64,000 nucleotides of DNA, taken from the NCBI RefSeq assembly GCF_022846255.1, contig NZ_AP025682.1. One strand, given 5' to 3'. Position numbers: made by a program. Of this stretch, positions 9,001-12,000 are shown piece by piece. This DNA comes from Escherichia coli. Lineage in GTDB: Bacteria; Pseudomonadota; Gammaproteobacteria; Enterobacterales; Enterobacteriaceae. How positions within the stretch are numbered: the first letter of the stretch is position 1; the number at the start of each line of letters is the position of its first letter.

Positions 9001-12000
9001 GTATATGAACGACATTACCTTTACTCAGAATGTTTTTCATCGCGGTGAAAAACATCGTATCCCTGGTAATTATAAGAAACATAACCGACTCCTGGTACGG
9101 ACATTAACTTTATAATAAGTTTGCCAAAGGTAATTAACAGGACAGGGCTTATAATAATAGTTAGCTTACTGTGTATTAATTTGATGTAATGCATGATGCA
9201 GATACTGAGAAAGCATCTGCATCTTTCGGTGGTGTTATTTGACCAGCTCAGGTGTTACCTGACTCACCGCATTGGTGTAGTAAGGAGCCCCCCAGCCCGG
9301 TTCCGGCCAGAATGCACCATAGCCGTAATCCCACAAGTTATAGGTGGTATTAACCACTTCTCTCAAATGCCACACCTGGATGCCCTGCATATTCACTTCC
9401 AGGAAGTTATACGGGACTTTATTGATAAAGCCAGGTTGTTCACCCTGAATGGTACCGAGGATGGTAACAAAGTGATTACGATAGTTCACTGGATCAAGGA
9501 AGCCGCTTTGTCTGGCGAGCAGTCGGCCCTGATAGTTGGCTTCAATATCAGGCTTCGCATAGCTATCCAACGGTAATACAGCGATTTCTAACAACGTATC
9601 CGTTTTGCCATTGATAACGTTGATAACCTTCCCGCCAAAGCGCGCTTGTTGACCAACATATAACCCCGGCTGGTTATGAACAGCAACAAAACTTTTTTGA
9701 ATATCAGGTTGGTTATTGCCTTTGATATTTTGCGGAATTGAACTACATGCGGCAAGCAAAAATGAAAGGCTGAGGATGAGTGCACCTTTTGTCATGTTCA
9801 TGTTACTATCCTTATCAACAAATATTAAAACCATAATAGATATTTCTTTATAGTTTTCATCTGATTCTGAGGCGATATGCCTGATAGTAACGTAAACCTG
9901 TCTGATGTTTATATCTCTTCTGTTTAGTTGAGTTCAGTTAATTTTTGGGCGTGGCATGAGTATCCATTGTTCCATAATCTATATTCAGAGGTTTTTAATC
10001 TTTTCGTGTCTAATATTATTTATCTGATTAAGTATTGATTGTGTCTTTTGCGGAAGTGGTGTCGAGCTTATCGTTTCAATGTTATTAATAAGACTTACAA
10101 GTTGAGCCTCAACTTTGAGTAGTCTGCATTTGTATATGTGGTGTTCGTATGGCACGCATTAATTTGTTGGCGTTGTTGCGCTAAATCAAATTGTTCAGAG
10201 GTGTATCCATTCTCCAGAGAATGGGGCATTAATGGGGTGTTGTTCTTCCCGGTTATCACAAGGCCACTTCGGTGTGTCTGGCGTTTTAACATTATCGGTA
10301 TTTGTTGTGCAGTTATAAATATCACCGTTATATGTATTTATTACACCTGGGGTAAAGTCAATTGACATAACATTCCTTATTCATCATTTGTTTTATGCTA
10401 AGATTTTTAAATTGGATAATTAGAACAGGAATGGATTTTCTTCTACATACAGTAAATATAATGCGTCATATCTTCCTGATATAATTACCTTTGACTTCTC
10501 TTTTATTTCCATCTGGTAATATTTGAGTGCAAAAAAAGGCAATAATCATATCGCAAAAGAAAACGTTAACAACTATCGAAAATGCTCGTTTTAAAAAGGT
10601 ATGATGTTCTCTGATAGTGTGTGAAGTGATATTTTTGTGATGTTTTAGATATGTAATAATAAAATAGGTTAACGTATGTTGAAATTATTTATTGTGTAAA
10701 CCACTGATAAATCATAATCCAGTACATCTTTAAACTGCTGCACTGTATCGCTGATAACTAAGCAGCTCACTGATACACCATGCTGGACGCGATAATTGGA
10801 ATCTCACGCAGGGAGTACTGTGTAAATAGCAAAATCGCCTGATACGCTACGACTGTCAGGCCTACAAATAACATACAATTCATCGAATTATCATAACGTT
10901 GTAGGTCGGATAAAACGCGCCAGCGTCGCATCCGACATAAATAAAGCGCATTTTTCTAACAACCTGTGGGGGAATATAGCCGCTTTATTTCAGGCGATTA
11001 CCCGCCTCATCAACCACTTTCTCGCCATCTTCCTTGGTGAACGCGCCTTTTTGCGCATCTGGCAGAATTTCCAGCACGACTTCTGAAGGGCGGCACAGGC
11101 GAGTTCCCAGCGGCGTCACCACAATCGGGCGATTAATCAGAATCGGGTGCTGAAGCATAAAGTCGATTAACTGATCGTGAGTAAATTTATCTTCTGCAAG
11201 GCCCAGTTCCTCATACGGCTCGACGTTTTTACGTAGCAGCGCGCGTACGGTAATCCCCATATCGGCAATGAGTTTTACCAGCTCATCGCGCGTCGGTGGT
11301 GTTTCCAGATAATAGATAATGGTCGGTTCTGTACCGCTGTTGCGGATCATCTCCAGCGTATTACGTGACGTACCGCAGGCCGGGTTGTGATAAATGGTAA
11401 TGTTGCTCATATCAGTATCTCATTACGATGTGAAAGAGAGGTGTAGCGCCAGCGCCACCAGAGTTACAAACCAAAGCGGACAAGTCAAAAACACATATGG
11501 TTTAACGAATATGTAAGTGTAGAGAAAGGTGTAGGTGTGAATTAAGCGTTGGGCATTCATTTGAAAGGAGGTCTGAATCAGGACGTAAAAAAACCGACTT
11601 CGCGTCGGTTTTTTTACTGTTCAGCCCTGAGTTGGTGGCTCTGGCTGGAGTGAGATAGCCATCATCTAACGCATCAATGCTAATACCATACTGAAACTAT
11701 TGCAAGGACATGCTGGTTTTATAACCCGCAAGTACTGTATGATTATCCAGTTGGTTCTGAGACATTTTCACTCTGGCAATGCGCATAAACGCTTTCAAAG
11801 TCCTGGTCTGAAGTACGGGTGGTGCCGTTAACTGATGCTCTGGCCGGAGTGAGATAGTCGTCATCTAACAATGAGACATGCGCCGTGACAGGCAATGGAT
11901 GAGTAAGCGGATGCATTCTCACTCCATCGCATGGAGAAAACGGGTGATTGATAAAGCAATCATCGTTCTTGGGGCGTTAATTGCGCTGCTGGAACTGATC

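What the first reader, a model, noticed from the sequence alone, without database searches (positions are those of the whole stretch)
10985..11620. arsR-arsB missing: ars promoter fused via an arsB tail to an intact arsC
Upstream of arsC the minus strand carries a sequence closely matching the recalled Pars/ArsR-operator region (...cacttacatattcgttaaaccatatgtgtttttgacttgtccgctt). It is followed directly by ~17 codons resembling an ArsB C-terminus and then arsC. Without arsR and the arsB pump, arsC would probably be constitutively expressed and the cell would reduce arsenate without being able to export arsenite.
Basis: partly seen in the sequence, partly recalled or inferred. Interest (0 to 1): 0.55.

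Follow-up and report, generated by a model that had tools for sequence, protein, structure and literature searches.

The report
Known B2 E. coli arsR-arsB deletion
This is the arsenic-resistance locus of a phylogroup B2 Escherichia coli, where an old, already published 1.7-kb deletion removed the arsenic sensor (arsR) and pump (arsB) and left only an intact arsenate reductase gene (arsC); it is ordinary for this lineage.

Summary
Between gor/dinQ/AgrB and slp, the minus strand carries the ArsR operator and the -35 box of the ars promoter (to 11474), 2 filler bases, the last 49 nt of arsB (11471-11423) and an intact arsC (11410-10985). Relative to K-12, 1686 bp are missing (NC_000913.3 3648490-3650175): the -10 box, the presumed start site, all of arsR and 96% of arsB.

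It is not peculiar to this strain. The same junction occurs once per chromosome in 1047 of 5426 complete E. coli genomes, including Nissle 1917, UM146, JJ1886/ST131 and ST95, all B2. About 1100 genomes lack arsB-like DNA. Sütterlin et al. 2018 (PMC5923176) already reported that B2 keeps only arsC between gor and slp and has low arsenite MICs.

My additions are minor:
- The breakpoint lies inside the promoter spacer, so any promoter is a hybrid: TTGACT, 17 bp, then AACTCT with an upstream TG. It is not distinguishable from chance by sequence.
- The orphan operator and the arsB tail have decayed at about the synonymous rate, while arsC shows dN/dS of 0.11-0.15.
- arsC is present in 5422 of 5426 genomes.

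"Constitutive arsC" is plausible but untested. Novelty: already known. Interest: low.

The parts
10985..11410 (-). arsC, an intact glutaredoxin-dependent arsenate reductase of 141 aa
   Evidence: ORF list. NF007456 scores 305.6 bits (cut-off 242) and TIGR00014 scores 135.6 bits (cut-off 106). Full-length match to PDB 1I9D at E=4e-85. C12, R60, R94 and R107 are present. dN/dS is 0.11-0.15 against K-12 and EC1515.
11411..11422 (-). Native arsB-arsC intergenic spacer (TGAGATACTGAT) carrying the weak Shine-Dalgarno of arsC
   Evidence: Identical to K-12 and EC1515.
11423..11471 (-). arsB 3' remnant: 1 nt, 15 codons and the stop. It is non-functional.
   Evidence: Aligns to K-12 L001 4177-4225 with 8 of 49 differences, while K-12 and EC1515 differ at 0 of 49.
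11472..11473 (-). Deletion junction: 2 bases (TG) assignable to neither flank
   Evidence: BLAST endpoints are 11474 and 11471 against both K-12 and EC1515. No clean microhomology.
11460..11465 (-). Candidate hybrid -10 hexamer AACTCT, preceded by TG, made of arsB-tail DNA
   Evidence: It lies 17 bp downstream of the retained -35. A rough PWM gives 8.77 against 9.94 for the native K-12 promoter, and the median best score in shuffles is 8.36. This is an inference, not a demonstration.
11483..11488 (-). Retained -35 hexamer TTGACT of the ars promoter
   Evidence: Aligned to the K-12 TTGACT that lies 48-53 nt upstream of the arsR ATG.
11486..11513 (-). Orphan ArsR operator remnant. The core GTCATATATGTTTTTG of intact operons is ACCATATGTGTTTTTG here.
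   Evidence: 3 of the 4 differences from EC1515 in the 111-nt remnant fall in this core. The core is identical in K-12 and EC1515. All 8 B2 sequences share the changes.
11474..11584 (-). Whole retained segment between the AgrB terminator and the deletion junction (ars upstream region)
11585..11669 (-). AgrB-family antisense sRNA (single copy) with its terminator. It is the upstream neighbour, transcribed in the same direction as arsC.
   Evidence: Rfam RF02891 scores 91.5 bits, E=3e-16.

Best explanation
Shown: the window comes from a phylogroup B2 E. coli chromosome carrying the lineage-wide deletion of arsR and arsB. One ancient event removed 1686 bp (K-12 equivalent 3648490-3650175). The left breakpoint is 9 bp downstream of the -35 hexamer of the ars promoter. 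The right breakpoint is 49 nt before the arsB stop. What remains is an orphan ArsR operator plus the -35 box, 2 filler bases, a 15-codon arsB tail, and a complete arsC with its native ribosome-binding region. Inferred: the deletion is old, close to the origin of B2. The arsB tail and the operator core have since drifted at about the synonymous rate, whereas arsC has stayed under purifying selection and is a near-universal E. coli core gene. Inferred, not shown: arsC is most likely transcribed at a low, arsenic-independent level. There is no ArsR to repress it. The likely promoter is a hybrid of the retained -35 TTGACT, a 17-bp spacer, and a fortuitous TG-n-AACTCT -10 in the arsB tail. Read-through of the AgrB terminator may contribute. 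From the literature: the cells lack the ArsB pump and are arsenite-sensitive. Speculative: ArsC may still help against arsenate if the As(III) it makes leaves passively through GlpF.
For: Endpoints: BLAST and pairwise alignments give the same endpoints against K-12 and against EC1515, which has an intact operon. Distribution: the 121-nt junction probe is found at 80% coverage or more, once per chromosome, in 1047 of 5426 genomes, including Nissle 1917, UM146, JJ1886, ST131 and ST95 strains. The contiguous gor-arsC arrangement is in 1109 genomes. The deleted segment is present in 4320 genomes. arsB-like DNA down to about 65-70% identity is present in 4330, leaving about 1096 without it. Literature: B2 isolates have only arsC between gor and slp, arsRB was lost rather than gained, and arsenite MICs are below 128 mg/L (PMC5923176). 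ST131 isolates lacking arsRB had the lowest As(III) MICs (PMC9731454). Selection: arsC dN/dS is 0.11 against K-12 and 0.15 against EC1515. The arsB tail differs at 8 of 49 positions, compared with arsC non-synonymous 6 of 321 (Fisher p=9e-5) and synonymous 16 of 102 (p=1.0). arsC is intact in 8 of 8 sampled B2 genomes and covered at 80% or more in 5422 of 5426 genomes. Operator decay. Hybrid promoter geometry and score.
Against: No transcription data were found for arsC in any B2 strain (literature searches). The hybrid promoter scores no better than the best site in shuffled sequence, and the tool's consensus scan did not report it. The native K-12 promoter would not stand out either. The within-B2 sample is small: 8 sequences with about 3 non-synonymous and 4-5 synonymous polymorphic sites, and one pair (JJ1886 against A22) gives dN/dS of about 0.9 on 4 differences. 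Post-deletion purifying selection therefore rests mainly on the comparison between the tail and arsC. Phylogroup assignment rests on well-known strain identities and the cited paper.
Confidence: 0.85

Rival explanations
1. arsC is a promoterless, silent relic. The deletion destroyed the promoter by removing the -10 and the start site, arsC is not meaningfully expressed, and it persists only because too little time has passed or by hitch-hiking.
For: The native -10 and presumed start site are deleted. The hybrid -10 matches only 2 of 6 consensus positions and does not exceed shuffled controls. A strong AgrB terminator lies upstream (sequence). No expression data were found.
Against: Over the same history the adjacent arsB tail accumulated 16% differences, about the synonymous rate, while arsC non-synonymous sites changed by 1.9%. 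arsC is full-length in 8 of 8 sampled B2 genomes and present in 5422 of 5426 genomes. The catalytic residues are intact. The hybrid site keeps the two most important -10 bases (A at position 2, T at position 6) plus an extended -10 TG and a 5-of-6 -35 box.
Confidence: 0.2
2. The B2 arrangement is ancestral, and arsR-arsB were inserted in the other phylogroups.
For: None beyond the bare presence/absence pattern.
Against: The window retains the ArsR operator, the -35 box and a recognisable in-frame arsB C-terminal remnant exactly abutting the native arsB-arsC spacer. These make sense only as leftovers of a complete operon. Sütterlin et al. reached the same conclusion from congruent arsRBC and rMLST trees.
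Confidence: 0.01
3. It is a strain-specific recent deletion or an assembly or sequencing artefact in this window.
For: None.
Against: The same junction, at 98-100% identity, is in 1047 independently finished genomes from humans, dogs, horses, chickens, mice, a possum and wastewater.
Confidence: 0.01

Closest known systems
Phylogroup B2 arsRB-deleted locus (Sütterlin et al. 2018, Antimicrob Agents Chemother 62:e00209-18; PMC5923176)
   Same: The gene content is the same: only arsC lies between gor and slp, with the chu/hem genes a few kb downstream. The lineage is the same, as the junction is identical to Nissle 1917, UM146, JJ1886 and others. The published phenotype is low arsenite MIC.
   Different: Nothing substantive. 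The paper does not mention the breakpoints, the promoter or the operator: a text search for 'promoter', 'operator' and 'remnant' gave 0 hits. The base-level anatomy given here is a refinement.
E. coli K-12 chromosomal arsRBC operon (b3501-b3503)
   Same: Same chromosomal site downstream of gor, dinQ and agr. Same operator and -35 box, same arsB-arsC junction, and an orthologous arsC with 136 of 141 identical residues.
   Different: The -10 and presumed start site, arsR and 1241 of 1290 nt of arsB are missing. The operator core carries 3 substitutions. There is one AgrB copy instead of agrA plus agrB. Most of yhiS is absent.
Sinorhizobium meliloti ars operon with AqpS in place of ArsB
   Same: An arsenate reductase works without an ArsB or Acr3 pump. 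As(III) generated inside the cell leaves down its gradient through an aquaglyceroporin (review PMC6138428). This is the model for how an arsC-only E. coli could still gain from ArsC through GlpF.
   Different: In S. meliloti the channel gene is part of the regulated operon and the function is demonstrated. Here GlpF is unlinked, and the idea is untested.
Laboratory ars-deletion strains (E. coli AW3110, MG1655 ΔarsRBC)
   Same: Loss of ArsR and ArsB, with arsenic hypersensitivity.
   Different: The laboratory strains also lack arsC. The natural B2 allele specifically spares it.

Membership tests
Complete arsRBC arsenic-resistance operon | ArsR As(III)-responsive repressor gene | tested here: not met
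   Deleted relative to K-12 and EC1515. No ArsR homologue in the 64-kb window.
Complete arsRBC arsenic-resistance operon | ArsB (or Acr3) arsenite efflux permease gene | tested here: not met
   Only the last 49 nt of arsB remain. No other ArsB match in the window. About 1096 of 5426 genomes have no arsB-like DNA at all. Acr3 was not searched for.
Complete arsRBC arsenic-resistance operon | Intact ArsR-controlled promoter (operator, -35, -10, start site) | tested here: not met
   The operator and -35 box are retained. The breakpoint is 9 bp after the -35 box, so the native -10 is gone. The operator core is mutated at 3 positions. The positions of the native -10, the start site and the footprint are taken from my memory of Xu, Shi and Rosen 1996, which was not retrievable.
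Glutaredoxin-coupled arsenate reductase ArsC (R773/K-12 type; TIGR00014, NF007456) | Sequence membership above the curated cut-offs | tested here: met
   NF007456 scores 305.6 bits against a cut-off of 242. TIGR00014 scores 135.6 against 106.05. PDB 1I9D matches at E=3.8e-85 over residues 1-141.
Glutaredoxin-coupled arsenate reductase ArsC (R773/K-12 type; TIGR00014, NF007456) | Catalytic Cys12 and the Arg60/Arg94/Arg107 triad (residue roles from my own knowledge of the R773 ArsC structure work) | tested here: met
   C12, R60, R94 and R107 are present in their conserved contexts. None of the 9 differences from 1I9D falls on them.
Glutaredoxin-coupled arsenate reductase ArsC (R773/K-12 type; TIGR00014, NF007456) | Arsenate reductase activity and expression in vivo | not testable with these tools
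   No transcript, protein or phenotype data for arsC in B2 strains were found.
Phylogroup B2 arsRB-deletion allele | Only arsC between gor and slp, with heme-uptake genes just downstream | tested here: met
   In the window, gor is at 12081-13433, arsC at 10985-11410, slp at 9235-9834, dctR at 8552-9082 and chuS at 7467-8495. The annotation of PA45B is the same. Described in PMC5923176.
Phylogroup B2 arsRB-deletion allele | Same deletion junction as reference B2 strains | tested here: met
   100% identity over 121 nt to Nissle 1917, UM146 and ST95-32, and 98.3% to JJ1886 and ST131 strains. Alignment of 8 B2 loci.

The most novel reading that the evidence does not exclude
The deletion did not simply cripple the operon. 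It created a new, ArsR-independent hybrid promoter from the old -35 box and a fortuitous extended -10 in the arsB tail, and this promoter keeps arsC expressed. arsC has been kept by purifying selection throughout the history of B2 because it has a pump-independent role. That role could be arsenate detoxification, with As(III) leaving through GlpF as in the S. meliloti AqpS system, or a non-arsenic redox function. Sütterlin et al. explicitly left this question open.
Probability: 0.3. Interest if true: 0.4.

Novelty: already known. Interest (0 to 1): 0.15.

Why it matters
It matters little as a discovery. The loss of arsR and arsB in phylogroup B2, and the resulting arsenite sensitivity, are published, and the allele is present in about a fifth of all complete E. 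coli genomes, including standard strains such as Nissle 1917, ATCC 25922-like, ST131, ST95 and the type strain. The value of this check is to stop the finding being treated as a peculiarity of one strain, and to correct one detail: the promoter is broken in its spacer and is not fused intact. One modest open question remains, already raised in the literature. arsC is a near-universal E. coli gene, present in 5422 of 5426 genomes, and stays under purifying selection even where its regulator and pump have been gone for the whole history of B2. The base-level anatomy given here makes that question directly testable through the candidate hybrid promoter, the decayed operator and the neutral-rate arsB tail used as an internal clock.

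Tried and rejected
1. Microhomology at the junction. Both flanks contain GCT, but the product has extra bases (TCCGCTT-TG-GTTTGT), so no clean microhomology or repeat explains the breakpoints.

2. A chimeric 45-aa ORF (11423-11560, minus strand) runs from upstream of the operator into the arsB tail frame. It could in principle restore translational coupling to arsC. It has no Shine-Dalgarno sequence, starts upstream of the only plausible promoter, and has no family match. I treat it as meaningless.

3. A terminator-like hairpin at 11458-11443 lies inside the arsB tail. It has a weak, interrupted U-tract, the count is within the shuffle expectation (2 found against 1.2 expected), and it would overlap the predicted start site. 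I did not count it as a terminator.

4. Sigma-70 scans. The tool's consensus scan finds nothing at the junction. My rough PWM ranks the hybrid site first in the region, but not above shuffled sequence. Sequence alone cannot settle promoter activity.

5. Primary literature on the chromosomal ars start site and ArsR footprint. Xu, Shi and Rosen 1996 and Diorio et al. 1995 are not held, and sequence-string searches found nothing. The position of the native -10 and start site and the TCAT-N7-TTTG operator motif therefore rest on my memory plus promoter geometry.

6. Expression or phenotype data for arsC in UPEC or Nissle. The hits concerned yffB or were irrelevant reviews.

7. A second ars locus in the window. 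None was found.

Full report
**What is in the sequence**

On the minus strand, the window reads in this order:
- gor (13433-12081)
- dinQ on the opposite strand (11944-12027, plus strand)
- one AgrB-family antisense sRNA (11669-11585; Rfam RF02891, 91.5 bits)
- a 111-nt stretch ending at 11474
- two bases
- a 49-nt stretch (11471-11423)
- a 12-nt spacer
- arsC (11410-10985, 141 aa)
- further on, slp (9834-9235), dctR (9082-8552) and, on the plus strand, chuS

**Alignment to reference operons**

Against K-12 MG1655 (L001 = NC_000913.3 3646000-3656000), BLAST gives two blocks:
- Window 11685-11474 matches L001 2279-2490, which covers agrB and the region upstream of arsR.
- Window 11471-9993 matches L001 4177-5670, which covers the arsB 3' end, arsC and downstream sequence.

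Missing relative to K-12 is L001 2491-4176, or NC_000913.3 3648490-3650175, a total of 1686 bp. The arsR ATG is at L001 2529 and the arsB stop at 4225. The deletion therefore starts 38 nt upstream of arsR and ends 49 nt before the end of arsB.

The base-level alignment shows the left flank ending ...TTTTTGACTTGTCCGCTT and the right flank starting GTTTGTAACTCTGG.... The right flank encodes FVTLVALALHLSFTS*, against K-12 FVTLAALALRLSFTL*.

Strain EC1515 (L003) has an intact arsRBC and, like the window, a single agr copy. It gives exactly the same endpoints. Two bases (TG, 11473-11472) belong to neither flank, and there is no clean microhomology.

**The promoter is cut, not fused whole**

In K-12 the only good -35 hexamer, TTGACT, lies 48-53 nt upstream of the arsR ATG. 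It is followed after 17 bp by GACACT. The ArsR binding site sits just upstream of the promoter (PMC3918153). The exact footprint and start site come from my memory of Xu, Shi and Rosen 1996, which I could not retrieve.

In the window, the -35 hexamer is at 11488-11483 and the breakpoint is 9 bp further on. Whatever occupies the -10 position is therefore arsB-tail DNA: AACTCT at 11465-11460, preceded by TG at the extended -10 position.

A rough position-weight score gives 8.77 for this hybrid and 9.94 for the native K-12 promoter. The best site in shuffled 300-nt sequences has a median of 8.36 and a 90th percentile of 11.0. The tool's stricter consensus scan does not report the hybrid. A hybrid promoter is plausible and is the best candidate in the interval, but sequence alone cannot establish it.

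With no ArsR in the window, or in such genomes generally, any activity would be unregulated by arsenic.

**Distribution**

- A 121-nt probe across the junction is found at 80% coverage or more, exactly once and always on the chromosome, in 1047 of 5426 complete E. coli genomes. These include Nissle 1917, UM146, JJ1886, many ST131 strains, ST95 and O6:K2:H1 strains, and isolates from dogs, horses, chickens, mice and a possum.
- The contiguous gor-dinQ-arsC arrangement is in 1109 genomes.
- Conversely, the deleted arsR-arsB segment is found in 4320 genomes by megablast.
- arsB-like DNA is found in 4330 genomes by sensitive blastn, so about 1096 genomes have none.
- arsC itself is covered at 80% or more in 5422 of 5426 genomes. 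It is 100% identical to the window in the type strain DSM 30083 and in 'FDA strain Seattle 1946'.

**Already published**

Sütterlin et al. 2018 (PMC5923176) state the following:
[quoted passage not shown] - All isolates lacking arsRB had sodium arsenite MICs below 128 mg/L.
- All isolates kept arsC, so it "remains unclear" whether arsC has another function.

A Bangladesh study found three ST131 (B2) isolates without arsR and arsB, and these had the lowest As(III) MICs (PMC9731454). The 2018 paper does not discuss breakpoints, promoter or operator.

**Evolutionary signals (my additions)**

*arsB tail.* It differs from both K-12 and EC1515 at 8 of 49 positions, giving 3 amino-acid changes in 15 codons. 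K-12 and EC1515 are identical to each other there. This 16% matches the synonymous divergence of arsC (16 of 102 sites; Fisher p=1.0). It is far above the non-synonymous divergence of arsC (6 of 321; p=9e-5). The tail has therefore drifted neutrally for most of the divergence between B2 and non-B2 lineages, which makes the deletion old.

*Promoter remnant.* The window differs from EC1515 at only 4 of 111 positions. Three of these fall within the operator core, GTCATATA changing to ACCATATG. This core is identical in K-12 and EC1515 despite 9 differences elsewhere between those two strains. All eight B2 sequences share these changes. This fits loss of constraint on an operator that no longer has a repressor.

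*arsC.* dN/dS is 0.11 against K-12 and 0.15 against EC1515. The gene is full-length in all eight B2 genomes sampled. It has the catalytic C12, R60, R94 and R107 and passes the curated NCBIfam cut-offs. Within B2 the sample has little power, with about 3 non-synonymous and 4-5 synonymous polymorphic sites.

**How it most likely works**

Shown:
- There is no sensor and no pump.
- arsC is intact and conserved.
- The operator and the arsB tail are relics.

Inferred:
- arsC is expressed at a low constitutive level from the hybrid promoter, or from read-through of the AgrB terminator.
- B2 cells are arsenite-sensitive, which is published.
- ArsC could still be useful against arsenate if As(III) escapes down its gradient through GlpF. 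There is a precedent in S. meliloti, where AqpS replaces ArsB (PMC6138428).

That remains possible, but it fits poorly with the long conservation of arsC.

**Rivals**

- Silent relic, about 0.2. The contrast between the tail and arsC argues against it.
- B2 state ancestral. The operator and arsB remnants refute it.
- Artefact or strain-specific event. The 1047 genomes refute it.

**Seen in passing**

- K-12 has agrA plus agrB, whereas the window and EC1515 have one AgrB copy.
- In JJ1886, Nissle 1917 and MSB2_1A, a 199-bp deletion between the dinQ-internal repeat and the agr repeat removes the dinQ promoter with its LexA box, and also the agr promoter. The window retains both.
- Most of yhiS (K-12 L001 5671-7781) is absent.

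**Verdict**

The feature is the known B2 arsRB deletion, and the interest is low.

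Noticed in passing
window 11585-11669 (-), 11944-12027 (+); loci L004, L005, L009: The dinQ/agr type I toxin-antitoxin region varies. K-12 has agrA plus agrB, whereas the window (and EC1515, PA45B, A22, FDAARGOS_1253, Trh52) has one AgrB-family copy. JJ1886 (ST131), Nissle 1917 and MSB2_1A carry a 199-bp repeat-mediated deletion, equivalent to window positions of about 11869-11671. It removes the dinQ promoter with its LexA box and the agr promoter, leaving the dinQ ORF apparently promoterless.
   Followed up: partly
window 9981-9993: Most of yhiS (K-12 L001 5671-7781, including the IS5 insertion of K-12) is absent and is replaced by about 11 bp. 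The remnant is annotated as a frameshifted, incomplete pseudogene in other B2 genomes.
   Followed up: partly
window 11497-11505: Three of the only four differences between the window and an intact-operon relative (EC1515) in the 111-nt ars upstream remnant cluster in the ArsR operator core, GTCATATA changing to ACCATATG. This core is otherwise identical between K-12 and EC1515. It suggests decay of an orphan operator.
   Followed up: yes
window 11423-11560 (-): The deletion, together with a 1-nt indel upstream, created a chimeric 45-aa ORF (MNAQRLIHTYTFLYTYIFVKPYVFLTCPLWFVTLVALALHLSFTS). It reads into the arsB tail frame and ends 12 nt before the arsC ATG. It has no Shine-Dalgarno sequence and no family match, so it is probably not expressed.
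   Followed up: partly
window 11753 and 11755: Two substitutions next to the dinQ LexA box (AGAACCAAC here, AGAGCTAAC in the other B2 genomes sampled that retain this segment, i.e. PA45B, A22, FDAARGOS_1253 and Trh52) are the only differences from the best match, PA45B, over 1201 nt. No genome in the collection is identical over this stretch.
   Followed up: no
window 9235-9834 (-) versus L002: slp is an intact ORF in the window and in JJ1886 and Nissle 1917, but it is annotated as frameshifted in the closest relative, PA45B.
   Followed up: no
window 7467-8495 (+): chuS, a heme oxygenase of the chu heme-uptake locus, lies directly next to dctR. This is typical of chu-positive phylogroups (B2, D, E, F) and is consistent with the B2 assignment.
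   Followed up: no
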